From Blastocatellia bacterium (GTDB lineage: Bacteria > Acidobacteriota > Blastocatellia > Chloracidobacteriales > JADJPF01), in contig JBDIBI010000019.1 of NCBI GenBank assembly GCA_039812885.1, positions 28,275 through 92,274 of the forward strand: a stretch of 64,000 nucleotides of DNA. Reading direction: 5' to 3'. Within the stretch, counting starts at the first letter, position 1. The number at the start of each line of letters is the position of its first letter. The position numbers were made by a program, and so were the translations under genes. The notes below the pieces were generated by a model. That model saw only the letters and a list, made by a program, of their open reading frames with translations. It did not search any database and was not told the origin of the DNA. Positions 53,849 through 64,000 of this stretch are shown here, in pieces.

Positions 53849-55609
53849 TTATTTACCAGCTTTAAGAGATTCTTCACGTTTAGCTTTAAATTCAGTACCT
53901 TCTCGCCAAGCAGGTATTTCTTTAGAGTTAGCTACTTCATAACCAACTTGGAAAATTAACACAAGGTCTTCTACTGCACCGCTAAGATCCCAGAAAGGTT
54001 TAACCTCATCTGATGGTTTATGGTAATCTTTTTCTAAGTATTCATCAGAAAGCTTTTTACCTTCGCCTTCAGGCTTACCAACTAGAATTTTTCCTGGCCC
54101 TGCGTCAAAGGCTGGAATACCTTGTTTTGCAAAGTTAAAGTGATCAGAGCGATAAAAATGACCTTTTTCTGGTTCTGGATCTGGTTTTACTTCTCTTCCT
54201 TGTGCGGCAGCTACACCTTTTACAATATCATCTAAGGTAGAAAGCCCTAGGCCAACTACGGTTACATCTTTACTTTTACCCCAAACATTCATGCTATCCA
54301 TATTGATGTTAGCAACTGTTTTAGCTACAGGATATAGAGGATTTTGACCATAATAAGCAGAACCTAACAAACCACGTTCTTCAGCTGTAACAGATAAAAA
54401 TAGTAAAGATCGTTTAGGAGGAGTGCCTAATTTTGTATAGGCTTTAGCTAGTTCTAGAAGGCCAGCTGTGCCAGTAGCATTATCTCTTGCACCATTATAA
54501 ATCTTATCATCATTTATTGGTTTTCCCTTGTCGTCAGTGGCTGGTGAGCCTACACCAAAATGATCCCAGTGAGCAGTAAAGATTACATATTCATCTTTAA
54601 GTGCTGGATCGCTGCCTTCAAGTTTAGCAACCACATTGTTAGATTCAATGCGCTTATATTCGCTCTTTAGTTGTAAAGAGGCTTTTACCCCTAATGAAAC
54701 AGGTTTAAAGTCTTTTTTCAAAGCTTCTTGCTTCATAGTGGCAAAGTCTTTACCTGCAAGTTTAAAAAGTTCTTCAGCTTTTTGAGTAGTTATCCAAGAT
54801 TCTATTGGAACTAGAGATTTGTTATTTTCTTTGTCAGCAATGGTAAAACCACCATCTCCCCAACTATTTCTAACAACTTCCCAGCCATAACCAGCAGGCT
54901 CTTTTTCATGAATAATGATGCAACCGGCTGCCCCTTTTTTAGTAGCCATTTCAAACTTATAAGTCCAACGACCATAATAAGTCATAGCCTTGCCACCAAA
55001 CATCTTTTCATCAGGTAAAGGAGGATCATTAATTAAAACTACCATGATTTTACCTTTTAGATCTTGTTCCTTGTAGTCATCCCATTGGAATTCTGGAGCA
55101 TCTGCACCATAACCTACAAAAACTAACTCTCCATCCATATTAACTTTATCAACTAGTTGGCGAGTCCAAGCAACAAAATCATCCTTAAATTTTAAAGACA
55201 TTGATTTATCGCCAGCAGAAAATTTCATTTCCATATTTGGATCAACTTTGTAACTAACTAGAGGAACTTTTTGCAAAAATGTCCCATCTGGATTGCCAGG
55301 CTTTAAACCTAGTTTCTGAAAATTCTCTGTAAGATATTTAACTGTTAACTCTTCACCTTTAGTGTTTGGGCTTCGGCCTTCAAACTCATCTGATGCTAGT
55401 TTCTTTATATGTTCTAACATGTCTTTAGCATTGATATTTTGTGCTGCTGGATCAATTGCTATGGCCTTTACATTGCTTGCTGTTGGACTTGCTGAAGTAG
55501 TTGGTTGGGGTGTTTCACTTTTATTTGTCGTTGTATTGTCTCCACAACCTAGCATTATTGTACTACCAAAAAGAAGTAGTGCTAAGGAAAGATATGTACT
55601 TGATTTCAC
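53849..55609 (-). CDS. M28 family metallopeptidase lipoprotein with PA domain
   Basis: Lipobox MLG|C, AHWDH, NGARDNATG, TAEERGLLGS, RSDHF.F, YHKPSD. Confidence 0.93.
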   Translation of the reverse strand: MKSSTYLSLALLLFGSTIMLGCGDNTTTNKSETPQPTTSASPTASNVKAIAIDPAAQNINAKDMLEHIKKLASDEFEGRSPNTKGEELTVKYLTENFQKLGLKPGNPDGTFLQKVPLVSYKVDPNMEMKFSAGDKSMSLKFKDDFVAWTRQLVDKVNMDGELVFVGYGADAPEFQWDDYKEQDLKGKIMVVLINDPPLPDEKMFGGKAMTYYGRWTYKFEMATKKGAAGCIIIHEKEPAGYGWEVVRNSWGDGGFTIADKENNKSLVPIESWITTQKAEELFKLAGKDFATMKQEALKKDFKPVSLGVKASLQLKSEYKRIESNNVVAKLEGSDPALKDEYVIFTAHWDHFGVGSPATDDKGKPINDDKIYNGARDNATGTAGLLELAKAYTKLGTPPKRSLLFLSVTAEERGLLGSAYYGQNPLYPVAKTVANINMDSMNVWGKSKDVTVVGLGLSTLDDIVKGVAAAQGREVKPDPEPEKGHFYRSDHFNFAKQGIPAFDAGPGKILVGKPEGEGKKLSDEYLEKDYHKPSDEVKPFWDLSGAVEDLVLIFQVGYEVANSKEIPAWREGTEFKAKREESLKAGK

Positions 55610-55874
55610 TATATGGACTCCTAGAATTTTAATAAGCTGGAATGTAATTTTGTTAATCTTAATGGTTAGAAAGGCTTACGTCAATCTAGCAGGTTATGGC
55701 TTTTTTAACCTTATCTGCTTCTTTTAAGCTAACTTTGTTTTTTAGTTATTATAAAATACTACTGTTTTTGGTTATAGAAATCTTGTATATTATGTTAGGC
55801 AAAACTTGTTTTTTATGTTAGAAAAATGTTGATTAATTGAATAAGAAAATCTGTCAATTCTTGATAGAATGGAG

Positions 55875-55903
55875 TTGACAAGCCTTATGTATTTTGTTAG
55901 GGT
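55875..55903 (+). promoter_or_regulatory. Putative sigma70 promoter giving a leaderless transcript at ATG 55910
   Basis: TTGACA-17-TAGGGT with TG extension; ATG 6 nt after -10; no SD. Confidence 0.55.
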
Positions 55904-55909
55904 ATTGAC

Positions 55910-56578
55910 ATGGTTAAAGCTAGACGATTTACAAAACCATTAATATTAATAGCCCTGCTAATGCTAATTTTCTCAAGCAATTGGGCAATTTTAGCTCGCC
56001 TAGCATTTTTTGCCAGTAATAACTCTTTATCTACCAAAGACGCCTTTTGCTTACCAGTAACAGAACAGGCTATTTCAAACCTTAATGAAGATAGCAGTGT
56101 AGATTTAATCGTTGGTAAAGTTGAAGGAAGTTCCTACAAACTTGAAATCAGTTTAACCGGAAATAACAATAAAGTATCTAACTTTGTTTTAGATCAACCT
56201 AATGTAATAGGATCAAGCTTTTTTACTTGTGATATAGATCAAGATAATGACCAAGATATTGTTGTTGTTAGCCCACTTTCTAATAGACCTATAGCAGTTT
56301 GGCTTAGTGATGGAAAAGGCAATTTTCAACAAGATAAAAGTTATACCAATGATGGTTTTTCTACTAGTGAATCAGATGTTTCCCAGCAAACTCACTTTCT
56401 AGCAGAAAGCCCCATTTCTAATGAAGAACAACGACTTTCTATAGAAAGTACAATACTATCTTTTATTAATCATAAGCTTGAACAAATCTTTGTAGGTACT
56501 TGTACTGTATCTAGTACTTATTCTAGAATCTTTTCAAAACTTATAACCTCTCGCGGGCCTCCTTTTAGTCTTATCTAA
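55910..56578 (+). CDS. Exported FG-GAP/VCBS-repeat protein with C-terminal RGPP arrest-like motif (putative regulatory uORF)
   Basis: Signal-like N-terminus, NLNEDSSVD and DIDQDNDQD..WLSDGKGNF repeats, ends SRGPPFSLI*. Confidence 0.75.
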   Translation: MVKARRFTKPLILIALLMLIFSSNWAILARLAFFASNNSLSTKDAFCLPVTEQAISNLNEDSSVDLIVGKVEGSSYKLEISLTGNNNKVSNFVLDQPNVIGSSFFTCDIDQDNDQDIVVVSPLSNRPIAVWLSDGKGNFQQDKSYTNDGFSTSESDVSQQTHFLAESPISNEEQRLSIESTILSFINHKLEQIFVGTCTVSSTYSRIFSKLITSRGPPFSLI

Positions 56579-56883
56579 TTTCTTACGCACAATCACTATA
56601 ATCCTTTTTATCTAATAGTTATTGTTATTGTGCTCTGCGTATTATTTCTTAGTCTAACAGCTATACTAAATTTTATTTATTCACTTTACTGGTGACTAGC
56701 AAGCTTGATAGTTGCTTGTTTGGAGTAGTTTTCCAATTAGATAGGCGATACATGAAGTTGCCTATGTAAGTTTACCTTTGTTATGTGAATAAAAGTTACA
56801 GTTAATTAAGTAGATTGGATGCTTAAACCTTTAAGTATGCAAATATTTCCATGATTTTTACATATTCTTCTGAGGAGGGAATA

Positions 56884-59800
56884 ATGAAAAAGGGCATTAC
56901 CCTAATTGTATTAGCTATTACATTAATAGTCAGTGCTATTGCACCAGTGCTAGCCCAAGATTTTGCATTTGGTGGAGCTGGCAATGCAAGTATTGGCTTT
57001 AGACAATCTATTCCATTATTAGCAACAGCTTCTAATGGTCAAACTATATCTAACTTAGGTGTTACTGGTGCAGCTAGAACCCCTTCTGCTATTGGCACTC
57101 TAGGAGCTGGTTATCTTAACACCATCCTTGCCACAGGAGCAGGTCGTTTACCTAATGGAAATAACAGTTCTTTTAATGTTGTTGATTTGGGAGTTGGTGA
57201 TGTAGACGGGGATGGGTTTTTAGATATTGTTGCTGTTTCTGATGACAATAACGCTTCTAATCTCAATGTTCGCCAATTTGGTGCTACTATTCCAACTCAG
57301 GCTGCTGGTACTGCTGGCAATGTTGGTAGAGTTACCTTATTTACAGGTATAGGAGATGGAACATTTGGTCTTCCTGTTGCTATTAACACTGCTGTTGGCT
57401 TTTCTCCAAGCTGTGTTGCTATGGGAGATTTTAATGTTGATGGTGCCAGCGAAATTTTAGTTGGCGAATCTAGCCAAGATGGTCAATTTACAGGCAATTT
57501 TGAGATTTTTTCTAGTGGTAATTTAACTAGCCTTGGCTTAGGCACTCCTACTAGTACACCTTCTAGAGTTGCTTCTGTTGCTTTTGGGCGTATAAATGAT
57601 GACCCATTTCCTGATGTTGTACTGGGTTTGAATACACAAGGAGGAGGATCTGGAACTGTATTAGTCTATCCTACTAATGGTAGTCCAACTTTATTAGCTC
57701 CTACAGTTTTAAATACTGCGGGTTCAATAGGTTTTAATGCTATTGCAGGCACTCCTGCCGGAATTATTCCAGCAAACAGAGCAGTAGCCACTTTCCAAAG
57801 TAACTTTCCATTTCCACTAGTTGGTGGTTCAGTAAATACAACTGTTGATGTTGGAGTTGCAACAACATCAGGTTTAGAAATTTTTGAAAACACCACTCCT
57901 CAAAACACTATTCAACCTACATTTGCTGCAAATGGTAATCCATTGCAAAATGGGGGTTTAGGGTTACAAGCAGGAAGTGGGCCAATTGGTATTTTACCTG
58001 GAGATATAAATGGTGACAATATTGAGGATTTAGTGGTTATAAATCGTGGTTCTGGTACAGTAACTTGTTATGTTGCTAACTCTGGAACTCCTGGATATCA
58101 AAGTGCTCGGACTTCTGTTGCTAGTAGTCAACCAACTTCTGGTACTTTCTCCAACTTTGATGGCGATGGCAAACCTGATCTTTTAATTACAGATGCGCTT
58201 AATGGAGTTACTGTATTAAAAGGTAATGGTGATGGGTCTTTTACCAATAAAGGTCTTTTAGCTGAATTAAATGTTACTGGTGAACCAGTATTCAACGCTA
58301 GTGCAGTTGTTAGCGGTGCGTTTGAAACCTTAATTGGTGGTGGTGCTGTTGATGATATCGCTATCGGTGATGGTTTTAGCAACAGTGCTTTAATCGGTGG
58401 TGGTTTATCAGGTGGGGTATATTACTTGTCAGGCTTACGCGGTGATGTTCCTGTTCGTTTAAGACTCTTTACCGCAATATCTTTAGCAGCTGACTTTGAT
58501 GGAACAGGTGGCTTAAATGACATCGCTTTAATGGAACAAGGTAGTGGTACAGTATTTGTTCTATTAAACGTATCTGCAACCAACCCAACTCCAACTGCTA
58601 ACTTGATTACCTTAAGAGACGTATTCACCAACAGAGATTTACGTCCAACTTCTGCTACTTCCTTTGTTGATGCTTTAACCGGCTTGAACGATATCGCTAT
58701 TACAGATGTTGGTACTCCTGAAAACACCAATGGTTCAGGTCAAATCATTGTTGGCTTAAATGATGGTACTGGCGTATTCTCCAACAGAAACCGCTTATTC
58801 CGTCAATTCGTTGCTACTTCTGGTGCCACTAACATTCTAAGTGGTGACTTTAGAAACACTGGTAGAGCTACTGACTTAGCATATGTTGACTATGCAAACA
58901 ACCTAGCTGCTGTTGTCCTAAATGATGGCACTAACTTCTTCTTAACTCCACAAATTCGTGAAACTGGTGGTTTTGTACCTGTTTCCGCAGCATTAGCTGA
59001 CGTAAACGATGACGACAACCTTGATATGGTAGTACTTAACGCTGGTACAGCTCCAAACCAAACAGTTGGTAATCAATCAATTGTGTCAGTTCTATTAGGA
59101 CAAGGTGATGGCCGCTTAATTCCAAGTGGCTCATTGCTAAACGTACCAAACTTTGGTCTATCAATCGTTGGTGGTTTAGCAGTATTAGACTCTACACCAA
59201 TTCGCCGTGTTGTAGACTTCAACGGTGACGGATTCCCAGACTTTGCAGTTAACTCAACTCGTGGTGGTGCAGGCGTTTTAGGCGTTCCAGGTCAACCAGT
59301 TCCAACAGTTACCTTGATTCTAAATCGTGCAGATGCTCCAGGCCAATTTGTTGTACAACCTCCTATCTCCTTGTTTGACGATACAGTTACAACAGGTGCA
59401 GGGAATGCTGTAAACGGTGCAAATATGACCTTGGATGATACAGGCGGCGGCCCAGCATTAGTAGCAGGTCGTGGTGGTCTATCTACATTAGGTTTAACAG
59501 GAGGATTTGGTGGTGCAGGTGTAGGTGGTGCTAATTACACATTAGCAGTATCTGATTTCCAAGCTGATGGTTCTCCAGACTTAGTTGTAACTGGTACTTT
59601 TACGACGCTACAAAATATAGTGGGGCCAGTTACTAACTTGACTCCAACCAACTATCGTGCCGCAATCTACCTAGTAGGAAATGAAACCGCAGGAACAATG
59701 CGTGTATCACGTCCAATGCGTATTAGAGAATTTACTATAAATGGCGCAGGAACATTAACCCCAAGATTCAATGCTGGAGACACCTTTGTAGCTTGTGCAA

Positions 59801-61095
59801 CAGGTAACTTTGCTCCATTTAACAACTTTGTACCAGATGTAGTTCACCTATCTATCAATGGTTCTTTATATTTGGATGCTAATATAACTTCAGTGTTAAA
59901 TCATGCTCCAATAGTAAGAATTAACCGTACAGACTTAGGTTCTCCAGTTGGTAGTGGTCGTAAAGTTATCTTAACTTCTGGTGAAATGAAGTCAATTCCT
60001 GTGACAGGCGCTACTGTTGATGTTCCTGCCAGTACGCTTAAATTCTCATTGGTGCCACCACCAACAAACGAACCACCACCAAGTTTTGTAAAAGTTCAAG
60101 ACAATGGAAACAACACTGCTAATGTTGTTATTGACACTCGCAACAATGGTGCTGGTGTCAATAATGGTCCAGGAAATCTAACTGCTCGTATAGCTGTAAG
60201 AGCAACAGATTCAGGTAATAGTGGGCCAGGTGGACGGCTACCATTGACTGGAGAAGATTTCTTTACATTGATTGTAAAACCAAAATCAGCTCCAACCATT
60301 GCTCCTATAGCTAATGTAAGCTTAGAAGCAGGTAAGAGTCAAAATGTAAATCTTCAAGTAACCGAAAAAGACGGTGGAGCAGTAACAGTAACTCGTTCTT
60401 GTGACAAGAATAGTTATGTGAATATTAGCGGAACTACTCTGTCAATAGCTCCAACAGACGGTGATGTAGGTACAAACACTTGTACATTAACAGCAACCGG
60501 GCCAACAGGCTTATTCTCAACTACTTCTTTTGTTGTAACAGTAAGACCTAGAGTCGTAGCCCCAACAATAGCCAACATTGGGGATCAAACTGTAACCCAA
60601 GGACAAGCAGCTACAGTAAATGTACTAGCAAATGGTTCTCCTAGTGACACCCTAAGATTATCCTTAGCATCAGCACCAGCATTCGTAACTTTGTCTGATA
60701 ACGGAAATGGCACAGGTGTAATTCGTATTGCTCCAACTTTAACAGACACTCAAGGCGGTCGTGTAACAGTAACAGCAACAAATCAAGTAGGGTTGAGTGT
60801 GTCAACTTCCTTTAATGTAACTGTGCAAAAGGCAGTAGTGATTAATGGTGCAGCCTTTGACACTGCTGGCAAACAGTTATTCATTAACGGCAGTGGTTTT
60901 GGAACTTCTGGAGCAAGAATAACAGTTAATGGGCAAGATATTTCTTCTAGAGTAAGTGGTCAATCTGATAGCTCAATTACTGTTAAAGGCAACAAGAAGA
61001 GATTAAACCTCAAGACCGGGCCAAACCAAATTGTGGTTACTTCTAGTGGTATAACTTCTAATACCTTTGTATTGAATTTACTAACTCAAGAGTAA
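56884..61095 (+). CDS. Giant secreted FG-GAP/VCBS beta-propeller protein with Ig/cadherin-like repeats and C-terminal Ig-like domain
   Basis: SD GAGGAGG before ATG 56884; signal peptide ...VLA|Q; many DxD/NxDG..D motifs; APTIA.I....V..G repeats. Confidence 0.88.
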   Translation: MKKGITLIVLAITLIVSAIAPVLAQDFAFGGAGNASIGFRQSIPLLATASNGQTISNLGVTGAARTPSAIGTLGAGYLNTILATGAGRLPNGNNSSFNVVDLGVGDVDGDGFLDIVAVSDDNNASNLNVRQFGATIPTQAAGTAGNVGRVTLFTGIGDGTFGLPVAINTAVGFSPSCVAMGDFNVDGASEILVGESSQDGQFTGNFEIFSSGNLTSLGLGTPTSTPSRVASVAFGRINDDPFPDVVLGLNTQGGGSGTVLVYPTNGSPTLLAPTVLNTAGSIGFNAIAGTPAGIIPANRAVATFQSNFPFPLVGGSVNTTVDVGVATTSGLEIFENTTPQNTIQPTFAANGNPLQNGGLGLQAGSGPIGILPGDINGDNIEDLVVINRGSGTVTCYVANSGTPGYQSARTSVASSQPTSGTFSNFDGDGKPDLLITDALNGVTVLKGNGDGSFTNKGLLAELNVTGEPVFNASAVVSGAFETLIGGGAVDDIAIGDGFSNSALIGGGLSGGVYYLSGLRGDVPVRLRLFTAISLAADFDGTGGLNDIALMEQGSGTVFVLLNVSATNPTPTANLITLRDVFTNRDLRPTSATSFVDALTGLNDIAITDVGTPENTNGSGQIIVGLNDGTGVFSNRNRLFRQFVATSGATNILSGDFRNTGRATDLAYVDYANNLAAVVLNDGTNFFLTPQIRETGGFVPVSAALADVNDDDNLDMVVLNAGTAPNQTVGNQSIVSVLLGQGDGRLIPSGSLLNVPNFGLSIVGGLAVLDSTPIRRVVDFNGDGFPDFAVNSTRGGAGVLGVPGQPVPTVTLILNRADAPGQFVVQPPISLFDDTVTTGAGNAVNGANMTLDDTGGGPALVAGRGGLSTLGLTGGFGGAGVGGANYTLAVSDFQADGSPDLVVTGTFTTLQNIVGPVTNLTPTNYRAAIYLVGNETAGTMRVSRPMRIREFTINGAGTLTPRFNAGDTFVACATGNFAPFNNFVPDVVHLSINGSLYLDANITSVLNHAPIVRINRTDLGSPVGSGRKVILTSGEMKSIPVTGATVDVPASTLKFSLVPPPTNEPPPSFVKVQDNGNNTANVVIDTRNNGAGVNNGPGNLTARIAVRATDSGNSGPGGRLPLTGEDFFTLIVKPKSAPTIAPIANVSLEAGKSQNVNLQVTEKDGGAVTVTRSCDKNSYVNISGTTLSIAPTDGDVGTNTCTLTATGPTGLFSTTSFVVTVRPRVVAPTIANIGDQTVTQGQAATVNVLANGSPSDTLRLSLASAPAFVTLSDNGNGTGVIRIAPTLTDTQGGRVTVTATNQVGLSVSTSFNVTVQKAVVINGAAFDTAGKQLFINGSGFGTSGARITVNGQDISSRVSGQSDSSITVKGNKKRLNLKTGPNQIVVTSSGITSNTFVLNLLTQE

Positions 61096-61364: not shown

Positions 61365-61760
61365 ATGAAGAAATTTCGTATTGTTACTAGATCTTTGCCT
61401 AAATACTGTGAAATATGTCACAAGGTAGATTGTTTTGATGCAAAAAACAATTATTGCTCTCGGTGTAGAACAATAAATTTAAGAGAAATGGTTTCTATGA
61501 CAGAGGGTGAAAAATTATTCAAAGATAAGAAGCTTGAAAATAACTCCAAAATATTAAAAAGAGCTATTAAAGGTTTAATGTGGGGTACTTTGTTTGGAGC
61601 CCTTTATACAATGGTTTTTGATGAGATTGTGTGTGGAATTTATTGGTCAAAAGTTAACCCCATAATATCAATACTAGAAGGCTCTGTATTTGGAGCGCTA
61701 ATTGGGATGATATTTAGCGTAAAAGTACTGTTTAAAAATACACAAAAGCATAACAGTTAA
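61365..61760 (+). CDS. Hypothetical protein, N-terminal zinc ribbon + two TM helices
   Basis: SLP..CEICH..D.FD..NN.CSRC then Gly-rich TMs. Confidence 0.65.
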   Translation: MKKFRIVTRSLPKYCEICHKVDCFDAKNNYCSRCRTINLREMVSMTEGEKLFKDKKLENNSKILKRAIKGLMWGTLFGALYTMVFDEIVCGIYWSKVNPIISILEGSVFGALIGMIFSVKVLFKNTQKHNS

Positions 61761-61870: not shown

Positions 61871-64000
61871 ATGCTAGAAAAAGTAATCTATTTTATACTA
61901 CAAGAAAAATTAATAGTGATTTCCCTTACTATATTTTTGTTACTTGGAGGGTTATTAGCTTTTAAGCAGCTTAACATAGAAGCATATCCAGATCCATCAC
62001 CACCAACAATTGACATAATAGCTCAAAATCCTGGTTTATCAGCAGAAGAAATGGAGCGTCAAATTACTATTCCACTAGAAACACAACTTAATGGAATGCC
62101 TGGTATTAGTCATATAAGGTCTTCTTCACTTTTTGGGTTAACAGATATTAAATGTTATTTTAATTTTGACACAGACTATAACTTTGATCGTCAAGAAGTA
62201 CTTAACAGGATACAAATGGTTCAGCTTCCATCAGGGGTTCAGCCTCAATTGTCTCCTACTTCAGCTGTTGGTGAGATTTACCGCTATCAATTGACGGGTA
62301 ATGGATATAGTTTACTTGAATTAAAGGAAGCAGAAGATTGGATATTAGAACGTCAGTTTAAACAAGTTCCTGGTGTGATAGATGTAGTCAGTTTTGGTGG
62401 GCCTACAAAGGAGTTTCATGTAGATTTAGATCCTAGCAAATTAACAGCTTTTAATGTGAGTGTTTCACAAGTTATGCAAGCAATTGCCAATAGTAACTCA
62501 AATGTTGGTGCAAACTATTTAGAGTTAGGTGTGCAAAGCTATAATGTTCGTGGGATTGGCCTTTTTCAAGATCAAGAAGATATTGGAGATGTTGAAGTTA
62601 GTTCTAAAAATGGTACTCCAATATATGTTAAGCAGTTAGGAGAAGTAAGTGTAGGGGCTAAAGTTCCGTTAGGCAAAGTTGGTAAAGATGACAACCCAGA
62701 CATTGTTGAAGGGGTTGTTTTAATGAGACGGGGTGAAAAAGCCTTGCCAACTTTAGATAAAGTGCGGGAAAAAGTAGAAAGCCTTAATAATGAAATTTTA
62801 CCAAAGGGAATGAAAATTGTTCCTTATTATGATAGAACTGACCTAATTAATCTTACTACAAAAACAGTAACACATACATTAATAGAAGGAATGGTATTAG
62901 TAGCTTTTATTTTGCTAGCTTTTTTAGGTAATTTACGAGCCTCGCTAATAGTAGCGCTTTCAATTCCACTGTCATTGTTATTTACCTTTATTGTGTTAGT
63001 TCTTAAAGGAGAATCAGCTAATTTAATCTCTATGGGAGCAATAGACTTTGGCATAATTGTCGATGCTTCTGTGATAATGGTTGAAAATATTTATCGCCAC
63101 ATTTCAGAAACCAAACAAAAGAATATCAACAAGACAATTCTTGAAGCAGCAAGAGAAGTAGGTAAACCTATTTTCTTTTCATCCATAATAATTGTAGTTG
63201 CTTTTCTTCCACTCTTTACTATGAAAGGAGTTGAAGGCAAAATCTTTGGCCCAATGGCACTTACTTATGGATTTGCACTTATTGGAGCACTTGCACTAGC
63301 CTTAAGTTTTTCTCCTGTAATGTCTTCAATATTTTTCAAACCATCAATGCATGAGCATGAAACATTTATTGTTGAAGTGCTTAGAAAAATATACTGTAAG
63401 TTATTAAGATTAACCTTAGCTGAACCGGTTTTAGTTGTTTGTCTTGCTGCTATTGCCCTAGCAGGTGCTTGTAGCACACTTCCTTTTATTGGAGGTGAAT
63501 TTATGCCTAAGTTAGAAGAGGGCAATCTTTGGGTAAGGGCTAGTATGCCTAATACAGTTTCTTTTAGTTATGCAAGTAAGCTTGTAGATGAGATGCGCAA
63601 GACCTTTAAAGAATACCCAGAAGTCACAACAGTTGTTAGTCAACTTGGACGGCCAGATGATGGTACTGATGCAACAGGATATTTCAATTCTGAGTTCTTT
63701 GTTACATTAAAACCAAGAGAAGAATGGCCTAAAGGAATTACTAAAGAAGATTTAATTAAACAAATGGAAAAGCAACTTCAGAAATTTCCTGGAGTAACTT
63801 ATAACTTTTCGCAAAATATTCAGGATAATGTTGAAGAGGCCATGTCAGGGGTTAAAGGTGAGAACTCTATTAAGCTGTTTGGAAATGATTTACAAAAGCT
63901 AGAGGATATAGCTCATAAAATTTCTGATATTATGAAAACTGTTCCAGGTGTTAGCGACTTAGGTGTTTTTAGTGAGTTAGGACAACCAAATCTGCTTATA
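61871..64000 (+). CDS. CusA/CzcA heavy-metal-efflux family RND permease (5' part; runs off window end)
   Basis: Not in ORF track. ATG 61871 with AGGAGA SD; MLEKVI...LNIEAYPD...GLSAEEMERQITIPLE...SANLISMGAIDFGIIVDASV..VEN...GGEFMPKLEEG. Confidence 0.93.
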   Translation, partial: MLEKVIYFILQEKLIVISLTIFLLLGGLLAFKQLNIEAYPDPSPPTIDIIAQNPGLSAEEMERQITIPLETQLNGMPGISHIRSSSLFGLTDIKCYFNFDTDYNFDRQEVLNRIQMVQLPSGVQPQLSPTSAVGEIYRYQLTGNGYSLLELKEAEDWILERQFKQVPGVIDVVSFGGPTKEFHVDLDPSKLTAFNVSVSQVMQAIANSNSNVGANYLELGVQSYNVRGIGLFQDQEDIGDVEVSSKNGTPIYVKQLGEVSVGAKVPLGKVGKDDNPDIVEGVVLMRRGEKALPTLDKVREKVESLNNEILPKGMKIVPYYDRTDLINLTTKTVTHTLIEGMVLVAFILLAFLGNLRASLIVALSIPLSLLFTFIVLVLKGESANLISMGAIDFGIIVDASVIMVENIYRHISETKQKNINKTILEAAREVGKPIFFSSIIIVVAFLPLFTMKGVEGKIFGPMALTYGFALIGALALALSFSPVMSSIFFKPSMHEHETFIVEVLRKIYCKLLRLTLAEPVLVVCLAAIALAGACSTLPFIGGEFMPKLEEGNLWVRASMPNTVSFSYASKLVDEMRKTFKEYPEVTTVVSQLGRPDDGTDATGYFNSEFFVTLKPREEWPKGITKEDLIKQMEKQLQKFPGVTYNFSQNIQDNVEEAMSGVKGENSIKLFGNDLQKLEDIAHKISDIMKTVPGVSDLGVFSELGQPNLLI

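What the first reader, a model, noticed from the sequence alone, without database searches (positions are those of the whole stretch)
55875..56886. Candidate secretion-monitoring arrest-peptide uORF (RGPP) whose Pro-Pro codons are the anti-SD of a giant secreted protein
Seen: the 222-aa ORF has an export signal and FG-GAP repeats of the same type as the downstream giant protein, a Ser-rich linker, and ends RGPP-FSLI. The codons CCT CCT T (56558-56564) can pair 7 bp (one G-U) with the downstream SD GAGGAGG (56872-56878). The ~305-nt spacer is structured: GCACAAT/ATTGTGC and TACGCA/TGCGTA at 56584-56641, and CTTATCTAATT pairing with AATTAGATAGG near 56735. The ORF looks leaderless (-10 ends 6 nt before ATG). 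Established: RAPP/RGPP/RAGP motifs are ribosome arrest sequences in SecM, ApdA/ApdP and DUF2946/CruR-type leaders, released by pulling force. Inference: a stalled ribosome masks the anti-SD and turns on the 1403-aa protein. The uORF may act as a substrate mimic that reports export or Ca2+-dependent folding of FG-GAP domains. Here it would regulate a cargo rather than the Sec machinery.
Basis: partly seen in the sequence, partly recalled or inferred. Interest (0 to 1): 0.88.

Follow-up and report, generated by a model that had tools for sequence, protein, structure and literature searches.

The report
RGPP ribosome-arrest leader ORF family
This 222-residue exported protein ends in a rare Arg-Gly-Pro-Pro sequence known to jam ribosomes, kept at a fixed distance from a small folded domain in about ninety relatives, so it most likely acts as a built-in sensor that switches on the genes behind it.

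Summary
ORF 55910-56578 has an N-terminal membrane helix, a two-blade FG-GAP domain, a disordered linker and ...TSRGPPFSLI*.

It belongs to a family in Acidobacteria-type genomes. R-x-P-P (x = G, S, A, D, once P) lies 1-23 residues from the C-terminus in 69 of 70 genome loci and in 23 of 27 small metagenome frames. The poorly conserved linker between domain and motif has a fixed length: 45 of 65 are 73-76 residues (mode 75).

In this genome RGPP, RAPP, RSPP and RAGP are absent from 3412 long ORFs (10-18 expected each).

In folding models, the SD and AUG of the 1403-aa gene pair mainly with ACCUCU (55%) and CCUCCUU (16%). Both lie under a ribosome stalled at RGPP. Only 3 of 140 control gene pairs reach this level.

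A C>G-rich stretch, as at CruR's Rho site, is also conserved, so Rho control is a live rival.

The "FG-GAP cargo mimic" idea fails: 24 of 65 relatives precede heavy-metal-type RND efflux genes and none an FG-GAP giant.

Verdict: a new member of the known RAPP-like arrest-peptide class. Stalling itself is untested.

The parts
55875..55903 (+). Promoter-like TTGACA (55875-80), 17 nt, TAGGGT (55898-903). The -10 ends 6 nt before the ATG, so a leaderless mRNA is possible.
   Evidence: The same geometry is kept in the paralog (TTGACA-17-TAATGT-6-ATG). A similar in-frame pattern occurs in 8 of 70 family loci (no null computed). Weakly against: an RNA-library contig spans 55817-56080 (it may be DNA).
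55910..56578 (+). The uORF, 222 aa plus stop. It encodes a membrane-anchored or exported two-blade FG-GAP protein with a C-terminal RGPP.
55931..56017 (+). N-terminal hydrophobic helix, residues 8-36. It is a signal peptide or a membrane anchor.
   Evidence: The AlphaFold model shows a helix at 8-36. The most hydrophobic 15-residue stretch starts at residue 7 and is preceded by 3 K/R. No dedicated signal-peptide predictor was available.
56063..56332 (+). Beta domain, residues 52-141. It forms two FG-GAP-type blades with invariant Asp/Gly/Phe positions in DxDxD-type loops.
   Evidence: pLDDT is about 88-93 over eight strands. Pfam FG-GAP_3. D61, D65, D108, D112, D116, G135, G137 and F139 are invariant in 19 sequences. 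The best fold matches are integrin alpha-V propellers at E about 0.02; none reaches 0.001.
56327..56551 (+). Disordered 75-residue linker (residues 140-214). Its length is conserved but its sequence is not, so it looks like a ruler.
   Evidence: Most of residues 148-210 have pLDDT <50. Of 65 measured linkers, 45 are 73-76 residues (mode 75, n=27) and 10 are 80. Pairwise identity is about 0.08 per column.
56552..56563 (+). The RGPP codons CGC GGG CCT CCT. The predicted stall has Pro217 (56558-60) in the P site and Pro218 in the A site.
   Evidence: R215, P217 and P218 are invariant. The stall geometry is taken from the CruR toeprint in PMC12992588, section 14; it was not tested here.
56535..56564 (+). 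Two pyrimidine anti-SD elements under the stalled ribosome: CAAAACUUAUAACCUCU (56535-51) and CCUCCUU (56558-64).
   Evidence: Base-pair probabilities with the SD and AUG at 56874-86 are about 0.55 and 0.16. The footprint takes 58% of the SD pairing mass. The control mean is 4%.
56500..56640 (+). C-rich, G-poor stretch (C>G bubble) over the 3' end of the uORF and the start of the spacer. It is a candidate Rho loading site.
   Evidence: C-G is +12 per 60 nt at -10 from the stop. Only 0.57% of 5592 ORFs in this genome reach that at the same position. The family mean maximum is 14.6, and 84% of loci have z>2. Rho is present.
56587..56633 (+). Hairpin just after the uORF stop. Its role is unknown.
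   Evidence: -10.3 kcal/mol, z = -1.92. The paralog also has one (z = -2.19). The family mean is only z = -0.94.
56872..56886 (+). SD GAGGAGG and the AUG of the downstream gene.
56884..61095 (+). 1403-aa secreted FG-GAP / He_PIG protein, the putative regulated gene in this locus.
61871..64000 (+). CusA/CzcA-type RND pump. It runs on past the window end; the ORF is 1030 aa in the contig. It is 73% identical to the pump of the paralog's operon.

Best explanation
The ORF is a regulatory leader of the RAPP-like arrest-peptide class.

Proposed sequence of events:
1. It is translated, possibly from a leaderless mRNA.
2. Its N-terminal helix takes the chain to the Sec translocon.
3. The ribosome jams at R215-G-P217 with Pro218-tRNA in the A site.
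4. At that moment the last strand of the two-blade FG-GAP domain is about 78 residues from the peptidyl-transferase centre. That is just far enough for the domain to fold outside the membrane.
5. Folding or translocation pulls on the chain and releases the stall.
6. While the ribosome sits there it covers the pyrimidine elements ACCUCU and CCUCCUU. These otherwise pair with the SD and AUG of the next gene, so a longer stall gives more translation downstream.
7. The stalled ribosome may at the same time shield the C-rich RNA from Rho.

Shown here: the anatomy, family-wide conservation of the motif and of the linker length, avoidance of the motif in this proteome, and the predicted pairing against controls.

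Inferred: the stall itself, its release by force, and the direction of regulation.

My odds: about 0.7 that this is an arrest uORF of some kind, and 0.5 for this full statement with SD unmasking as the main output in this locus.
For: Motif:
- R-x-P-P lies within 30 residues of the C-terminus in 69 of 70 genome loci: RGPP 46, RSPP 12, RAPP 7, RDPP 3, RPPP 1.
- It is present in 23 of 27 small-frame metagenome hits.
- R215, P217 and P218 are invariant at 31% mean column identity.
- The motifs occur 0 times against 10-18 expected in 3412 long ORFs.
- The third carrier in the genome precedes a TonB-dependent receptor, a published class of such uORFs (PMC12992588 section 13).

Ruler:
- Linkers are 71-83 residues with a mode of 75, although the sequence is near-random and disordered.
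- For comparison, the membrane-anchored LepB periplasmic domain folds when its last strand is about 70 residues from the PTC (bioRxiv 10.1101/2021.02.06.430026, passages read).
- CruR's sensing motif is likewise at a fixed spacing from RAPP (PMC9426467, passages).

SD coupling:
- 58% of the SD pairing mass goes to the 28-nt stall footprint.
- Blocking the footprint leaves G56872-74 unpaired.
- Only 3 of 140 control gene pairs in this genome reach 58%.
- Family-wide, 15 of 48 loci reach >=50%. Footprints shifted by -60 and -100 nt reach it in 2 of 48 and 1 of 48.
- The first Pro codon is CCT in 29 of 67 GC-rich loci, against a 13% background.

Literature: RGPP and RAPP arrest robustly in varied sequence contexts, and RSPP and RDPP are permissive (PMC12992588, abstract and passages).
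Against: - No stall was measured.
- The 305-nt spacer is long for SD masking, and the result depends on how much sequence is folded. With a shorter segment, pairing of the Pro codons with the SD summed to only 0.53 bp, and SD accessibility did not rise on blocking (0.41 to 0.35).
- The paralog flips between 5.8 bp and 0% with context. L042 and L043, near-identical loci, give 11% and 93%.
- 33 of 48 loci do not show the pairing, and some downstream start sites there were picked by a heuristic.
- Residues before RxPP are barely conserved (0.13-0.16 identity), so the needed tunnel contacts are unproven.
- No RNA-library contig bridges the spacer.
- Related sequences are not independent, so the binomial P values are overstated.
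Confidence: 0.5

Rival explanations
1. The arrest uORF is the same, but its output is transcriptional, as in CruR. The stalled ribosome keeps Rho off a C-rich loading site at the 3' end of the uORF and the start of the spacer, so RNA polymerase reads on. When the stall is released, Rho terminates within the 305-nt spacer. On this view the SD pairing is a by-product of pyrimidine-rich RNA.
For: - A C>G bubble peaks at the uORF end in nearly every locus. The window has +12 and the paralog +17, in the top 0.57% and 0.36% of 5592 ORFs by the two measures. The family mean is 14.6 with 84% at z>2.
- CCG is depleted at the first Pro codon: 17 of 67 against a 47% background.
- Rho is present at 712 bits, above the 509 cut-off.
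- Spacers are long and variable, 26 to more than 500 nt, which suits termination better than SD masking.
- The CruR mechanism is published (PMC9426467, abstract and passages).
Against: - The C-rich bias could come from the Ser/Pro/Leu/Ala-rich composition of the linker.
- CCC is also depleted (6 of 67 against 25%), which a pure C>G requirement would not predict.
- The SD-footprint pairing exceeds both controls.
- There are no data on Rho sites in this phylum.
Confidence: 0.25
2. RxPP is a functional motif of the mature protein, such as a docking, processing or PDZ-binding C-terminal tag. The ORF is then simply a small membrane-anchored FG-GAP protein with no role as a leader.
For: - The protein has a conserved, confidently folded domain, unlike most leader peptides.
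- Downstream genes vary.
- The tails after the motif are short and often hydrophobic.
- 4 of 65 loci precede Trypsin_2/PDZ proteases.
Against: - The motif is one this proteome otherwise excludes and is a documented stalling sequence (PMC12992588).
- G, S, A and D are tolerated at position 2, exactly as in the arrest-permissive mutants.
- The tail varies from 1 to 23 residues with no conserved sequence.
- A fixed-length disordered linker and nucleotide-level features are not expected for a docking tag.
Confidence: 0.1
3. The stall is real but serves only the protein's own biogenesis. It would be a pause that gives time for targeting, or for assembly of two-blade units into a closed propeller, with no control of downstream genes.
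For: - A two-blade unit cannot close a propeller alone.
- Fold hits include the two-blade RSL lectin monomers (TM-score normalised to the target 0.53-0.59, but E = 0.08-0.5). That these assemble into a propeller is recalled, not checked here.
- The fixed linker would also fit timing relative to the translocon.
Against: - A stall 4 residues before the stop is late for targeting.
- In both paralogs of this genome the ORF heads a same-strand gene set and has no same-strand gene directly upstream. In L048 and L049, however, another ORF precedes it.
- Enrichment before RND efflux genes (24 of 65) and SD-footprint pairing point to regulation.
Confidence: 0.08
4. One reading: the uORF mimics the FG-GAP cargo, reports export or Ca2+-dependent folding of that cargo class, and exists to tune the 1403-aa protein.
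For: Both proteins carry FG-GAP_3 repeats, and the SD of the giant gene pairs with the stall site.
Against: - No FG-GAP family is among the 19 Pfam families matched by the 65 downstream proteins of relatives.
- The paralog and G023 precede OEP-MFP-CzcA operons.
- The window's pump is 73% identical to the paralog's, so the giant gene looks like a secondary replacement.
Confidence: 0.05

Closest known systems
[quoted passage not shown]
   Same: Small (<300 aa) secreted or membrane protein. RGPP, RAPP or RSPP lies a few residues from the C-terminus. A same-strand downstream gene follows. The motif is otherwise purged from the proteome.
   Different: - It carries a recognisable folded FG-GAP domain at a fixed distance of about 75 residues.
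- It occurs in Acidobacteria-type genomes.
- Its usual downstream genes are OEP, CusB-like and CzcA-like efflux components. The paper's main text has no occurrence of 'efflux', 'TolC', 'RND' or 'FG-GAP'.
- Its source-data gene lists could not be read, because supplements are closed.
CruR / DUF2946 (Roy et al., mBio 2022, PMC9426467)
   Same: Exported uORF product with a C-terminal R-A-P-P three residues from the end. A sensing element sits at a fixed spacing from the motif. There is a C>G-rich 3' region and a long intergenic region. The downstream genes relate to metals.
   Different: - No CXXC motif and no DUF2946 match; Pfam gives only FG-GAP families.
- The spacing is about 75 residues, not 45.
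- The sensor would act outside the membrane, by folding, rather than in the cytoplasm.
- The targets are mostly efflux rather than uptake genes.
- A role for Rho is untested here.
SecM, MifM, VemP and other Sec/YidC monitoring substrates
   Same: An N-terminal export signal plus a C-terminal arrest sequence. The stall is relieved by pulling force. The stalled ribosome opens a structure that hides the next gene's SD.
   Different: No downstream gene examined here was identified as a Sec or YidC component (28 of 65 had no Pfam match). One of the 65 matched TatA_B_E, a protein-export (Tat) family, but I did not work out which locus. The monitored event would be folding of the ORF's own domain.
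Force-profile constructs: a periplasmic domain, a linker and a SecM arrest peptide (bioRxiv 10.1101/2021.02.06.430026)
   Same: The geometry matches. A membrane-anchored periplasmic domain folds and pulls when its last strand is about 70 residues from the PTC. Here the figure is about 78.
   Different: Those are engineered reporters. This would be a natural one.

Membership tests
RAPP-like ribosome arrest peptides | R-[A/G](S/D tolerated)-P-P close to the C-terminus | tested here: met
   RGPP lies 4 residues from the end. It is present in 69 of 70 genome loci and in 23 of 27 metagenome small frames.
RAPP-like ribosome arrest peptides | N-terminal signal peptide or transmembrane segment | tested here: met
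   The hydrophobic stretch starts at residue 7 after 3 K/R, and 18 of 19 aligned relatives are similar. The model shows a helix at 8-36. No SignalP or DeepTMHMM was available.
RAPP-like ribosome arrest peptides | A same-strand downstream gene within an operon-like distance | tested here: met
   A 305-nt spacer leads to the 1403-aa ORF. The pattern is similar in relatives.
RAPP-like ribosome arrest peptides | The motif is otherwise avoided in the proteome | tested here: met
   0 observed against 10-18 expected in 3412 long ORFs. There are three plausible carriers in the genome, all C-terminal.
RAPP-like ribosome arrest peptides | The ribosome actually stalls with the two Pro codons in the P and A sites | not testable with these tools
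   This needs in vitro translation and toeprinting, or ribosome profiling.
RAPP-like ribosome arrest peptides | Downstream expression depends on the motif | not testable with these tools
   In silico only: the SD pairs with the stall footprint (58%; controls).
Sec/YidC monitoring substrates (SecM, MifM, VemP, ApdA/P, ApcA) | The downstream gene encodes a Sec or YidC component | tested here: not met
   In the window the downstream gene is an FG-GAP/He_PIG protein. In relatives it is OEP 14, HlyD_D23 9, ACR_tran 1, Radical_SAM 5 and Trypsin_2 4 of 65. No Sec or YidC family was matched; one of the 65 matched TatA_B_E (Tat export), locus not identified, and 28 of 65 had no Pfam match.
CruR / DUF2946 | DUF2946 domain with a CXXC motif about 45 residues before RAPP | tested here: not met
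   Pfam gives only FG-GAP_3 and FG-GAP. The linker has no CXXC.
CruR / DUF2946 | C>G-rich, unstructured RNA at the uORF 3' end that acts as a Rho site | tested here: inconclusive
   The C>G bubble is present and rho is present. Rho action is untested.
FG-GAP / VCBS repeat proteins (PF13517) | Pfam score above the curated cut-off, and a beta-propeller blade fold | tested here: met
   27.5 bits against 26.9. The model shows eight strands in two blades at pLDDT about 90. Integrin propellers are the top fold hits, but only at E about 0.02.

The most novel reading that the evidence does not exclude
This family is a natural force sensor for the cell envelope.

A two-blade FG-GAP domain with invariant DxDxD-type cation loops is held exactly about 75 disordered residues from an RGPP stall site. 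The ribosome therefore reads out whether the domain has folded just outside the translocon. When folding fails, for instance because toxic metals displace Ca2+, the envelope is stressed or Sec is jammed, the stall persists.

Without any transcription factor, the persisting stall switches on CzcCBA-type metal efflux pumps, HtrA-like proteases and, in this window, a giant surface protein.
Probability: 0.3. Interest if true: 0.8.

Novelty: new member of a known kind. Interest (0 to 1): 0.62.

Why it matters
RAPP and RGPP arrest peptides were recently shown to sit before many kinds of genes. For almost all of them it is unknown what is sensed. This family offers an unusually readable case:
- a confidently folded extracytoplasmic domain;
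- a linker whose length, not sequence, is conserved;
- a match between that length and the distance at which a tethered periplasmic domain is known to fold and pull.

It would link co-translational folding outside the membrane to control of heavy-metal efflux operons in a poorly studied phylum. It also gives a natural test bed for force-dependent release of the RGPP stall.

Tried and rejected
- Folding 56540-56900 alone gave z = -1.27, and the MFE had no Pro-codon:SD helix. A short-context ensemble gave only 0.53 bp. The pairing appeared only with more upstream sequence, so this evidence depends on context.
- The promoter and terminator scan of 55500-57100 listed no + strand promoter-like site inside 56579-56850 at its threshold, and no + strand terminator. 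This does not exclude a promoter.
- Rfam has no family in 55600-57000 at E<=1.
- The post-stop hairpin is not a family feature: mean z = -0.94, and 20% of loci are below -2.
- The word-indexed protein searches found few relatives: 3, then 6. The HMM scan and the genome searches found the family.
- RNA-library contigs covered 55817-56080, 56275-56603, 56554-56730 and parts of the giant gene. None bridged the spacer, and all may be DNA carry-over. No conclusion on transcripts.
- Fold search gave no match at E<=0.001.
- Literature searches for an arrest peptide together with FG-GAP, heavy-metal efflux or czcC, and for RAPP/RGPP together with efflux, found no paper that links them.

Rows dropped before counts:
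- From I fetched all hits in open frames of <=335 aa without internal stops that I did not already hold.
- I left out 27 hits in frames of >=571 aa (generic FG-GAP giants) and 2 hits with an internal TAG (G019:C262, G602:C32).
- In one search only loci with a downstream ORF of >=250 aa and a spacer of 15-700 nt were folded (48 of 70).
- One search scanned 65 downstream ORFs that were called crudely. Of these, 28 matched no Pfam family at 1e-5.
- Several metagenome loci duplicate genome loci: L131-133 have the same C-terminal 25 residues and length as L052, and L136 likewise matches L054.

Full report
**1. What is in the window**

ORF 55910-56578 (+) encodes 222 residues ending ...KLITSRGPPFSLI*.
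- TTGACA (55875-80), 17 nt, TAGGGT (55898-903) and 6 nt precede the ATG. No SD lies in between.
- 305 nt after the stop, GAGGAGG (56872-78) and ATG 56884 open a 1403-aa FG-GAP/He_PIG protein.
- Next come a 131-aa ORF and a CusA/CzcA-type RND pump.
Related loci come from records titled Acidobacteria.
- Near-identical DNA occurs in activated-sludge, sludge, hot-spring and mat metagenomes: 20 of 21 listed rows hold it or part of it (14 hold at least half of its sampled words), from 12 studies, and two of those rows may be the source itself.

**2. The protein**

An AlphaFold model built on a 19-sequence alignment (mean pLDDT 67) shows three parts:
- a helix at residues 8-36;
- an eight-strand beta domain at 52-141 with pLDDT about 88-93;
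- a low-confidence tail: most of residues 148-210 have pLDDT below 50.

Pfam calls FG-GAP_3 just above its cut-off, 27.5 against 26.9 bits. Fold search puts integrin alpha-V propeller blades first, at E about 0.02, with nothing at 0.001 or better. It also lists the two-blade RSL lectin.

**3. The family**

A paralog in the same genome (C8:179208-179870, 61% identical) ends ITSRGPPNII*. I collected 70 small-ORF loci, the window included, from these sources:
- searches of 41, 401 and 401 genomes;
- a scan of GTDB contigs.

A profile scan of 1.8 billion proteins also contributed sequences to the seed alignments A3 and A6.

Of these loci, 69 carry R-x-P-P within 30 residues of the C-terminus: RGPP 46, RSPP 12, RAPP 7, RDPP 3, RPPP 1. 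L123 has none.

In metagenome contigs, 27 small frames hit the family profile and 23 carry the motif. L140 reads RGPS. L151, L164 and L167 match only the FG-GAP part. Some loci are duplicates or close kin.

In the 19-sequence alignment (31% mean column identity) the invariant columns are D61, D65, D108, D112, D116, G135, G137, F139, R215, P217 and P218. The tail after the motif is 1-23 residues, with a mode of 4.

**4. The motif is not there by chance**

In 3412 ORFs of >=300 aa in this genome, RGPP, RAPP, RSPP and RAGP each occur 0 times against 10-18 expected. Among 25,945 ORFs of >=40 aa, the three longest carriers are:
- this ORF;
- its paralog;
- a 168-aa ORF (C17:5799-6305, RSPP plus 3 residues) upstream of a TonB-dependent receptor.

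This matches the published picture (PMC12992588):
- RGPP is the most under-represented four-residue sequence in most phyla, and RSPP and RDPP are arrest-permissive (passages).
- RAPP and RGPP cluster at the C-termini of small secreted or membrane proteins upstream of diverse genes, TonB-dependent receptors among them (section 13).
- All seven S. lividans examples stalled in vitro (section 14).

**5. A ruler**

I measured the distance from the end of the last conserved strand motif (DGxGxF) to the Arg in 65 loci. It is 71-83 residues: 45 are 73-76 (mode 75, n=27) and 10 are 80. In the 19-sequence set, 18 are 73-76.

The linker sequence itself is almost unconserved. Pairwise identity is about 0.08 per column, rising to 0.13-0.16 only in the last ten residues. 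The linker is also predicted to be disordered.

With Pro217 in the P site, the domain's last strand is about 78 residues from the peptidyl-transferase centre. Force-profile work on membrane-anchored LepB found the periplasmic domain folding, and pulling, when its last strand is about 70 residues from that centre (bioRxiv 10.1101/2021.02.06.430026, passages). CruR also keeps its sensing CXXC at a fixed 45 residues from RAPP, and changing that spacing was tested there (PMC9426467, passages).

I infer that the stall is timed to the moment the domain can fold outside the translocon.

**6. Coupling to the next gene**

Two signals exist at the nucleotide level.

(a) SD masking.
Blocking a stall footprint (56546-73) leaves G56872-74 unpaired.
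- With 150 nt of upstream context, 58% of the SD pairing mass goes to the 28-nt footprint.
- In 140 control gene pairs from this genome the mean is 4%, and 3 reach 58%.
- Across 48 family loci, 15 reach >=50%. Footprints shifted by -60 or -100 nt reach it in 2 and 1.
- The result is fragile. A shorter context gave 0.53 bp and no opening. The paralog and the L042/L043 pair flip between runs.
- CCT is enriched at the first Pro codon in GC-rich loci: 29 of 67 against a 13% background, nominal P = 1e-9, overstated by kinship. However, loci with and without CCTCC pair equally often: 8 of 25 against 7 of 23.

(b) A C>G bubble.
- C minus G peaks at the uORF's 3' end. The window has +12 per 60 nt; 0.57% of 5592 ORFs reach that at the same place. 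The paralog has +17; 0.36% of ORFs reach that as a regional maximum.
- The family mean is 14.6, and 84% of loci have z>2.
- This is the signature of the Rho site in CruR, where the stalled ribosome blocks Rho. The genome has rho.
- I cannot separate (a) from (b), and both may act.

**7. What it regulates**

Of 65 downstream ORFs of relatives, the Pfam matches are OEP 14, CusB-type HlyD_D23 9, ACR_tran 1, Radical_SAM 5 and Trypsin_2 4 (three of these with PDZ). None is FG-GAP.

The paralog and G023 head OEP-MFP-CzcA operons, with TIGR00914 scores of 958 and 956 bits. The window's pump is 73% identical to the paralog's and has no OEP or MFP beside it. The window therefore looks like a duplicated uORF-efflux locus in which the FG-GAP giant and the 131-aa gene replaced OEP and MFP.

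This speaks against the 'cargo mimic' idea. It suggests a metal or envelope-stress theme, which is an inference.

**8. Leaderless start**

The paralog keeps exactly the same -35 / 17 / -10 / 6 / ATG geometry, although the flanks have diverged. Eight of 70 loci show a similar in-frame pattern; I computed no null for this.

One low-depth contig from a metatranscriptome library covers 55817-56080, which is upstream of the proposed start. It may be DNA or another transcript. I put the leaderless reading at about even odds.

**9. Verdict**

The finding is real and is a good call. It is best filed as a new family within the known RAPP-like arrest-peptide uORFs.
- It fails the membership tests for Sec/YidC monitoring substrates and for DUF2946.
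- It probably works like both.
- The stall, the release by force and the direction of control remain to be shown.

Noticed in passing
G000:C17:5799-6305 (-), locus L051: This is the third R-x-P-P ORF of the genome. It is 168 aa, has a hydrophobic N-terminus and ends RSPPFLA*. It has no Pfam match. It lies about 180 nt upstream of a TonB-dependent receptor (Plug plus barrel), the published CruR-like context. Its Pro codons are CCC CCA, although CCC is only 4.5% of Pro codons in this genome.
   Followed up: partly
G000:C8:179208-179870 (+), locus L011 5209-5871: The paralog of the window ORF (61% identical, RGPP plus 3 residues) heads an operon of OEP (489 aa), CusB-like MFP (489 aa) and CzcA-like RND (1036 aa). 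It has the same leaderless-type promoter geometry and an 11-bp AT-rich hairpin after its stop.
   Followed up: yes
L056 1860-2660: This family member has two RAPP motifs, 45 and 75 residues after the domain. The first spacing equals CruR's CXXC-to-RAPP distance, which may be coincidence.
   Followed up: no
L090, L099, L114 (RDPP); L127 (RPPP); L123 and L140 (no motif; L140 reads RGPS): These are natural variants at position 2 of the motif, plus two copies that have lost it. They would serve as ready-made controls for stalling assays.
   Followed up: no
L042-L044 (genomes G011-G013): In the genus with 3.7-Mb genomes in two contigs, the family ORF precedes a 320-330-aa secreted protein with no Pfam match. 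It is transcribed divergently from two genes whose N-termini look like SecD and SecF. That resemblance is recalled and was not tested.
   Followed up: no
window 61365-61760 (+): A 131-aa ORF with CxxC...CxxC near its N-terminus and a hydrophobic C-terminal half lies between the giant gene and the RND pump. It has no Pfam or NCBIfam match. A 244-aa ORF about 7 kb further on in the contig, outside the window, has a similar CEICH string.
   Followed up: no
window 56063-56332 (protein residues 52-141): The two-blade domain weakly resembles two-blade RSL lectin monomers, which by my recollection (not checked here) trimerise into a six-blade propeller (TM-score normalised to the target 0.53-0.59, E = 0.08-0.5). 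The protein might oligomerise after release.
   Followed up: partly
C-terminal tails across the family: The 3-6 residues after RxPP are often hydrophobic (FSLI, NII, LPLI, FLLS, SLFI). Four loci precede HtrA-like Trypsin_2/PDZ proteases. A PDZ-ligand role for the released C-terminus is conceivable.
   Followed up: no
window 55817-56080: A contig from a root metatranscriptome library covers the promoter region and the first 170 nt of the ORF at depth 2. This is at odds with a strictly leaderless transcript if it is RNA of this strand.
   Followed up: partly
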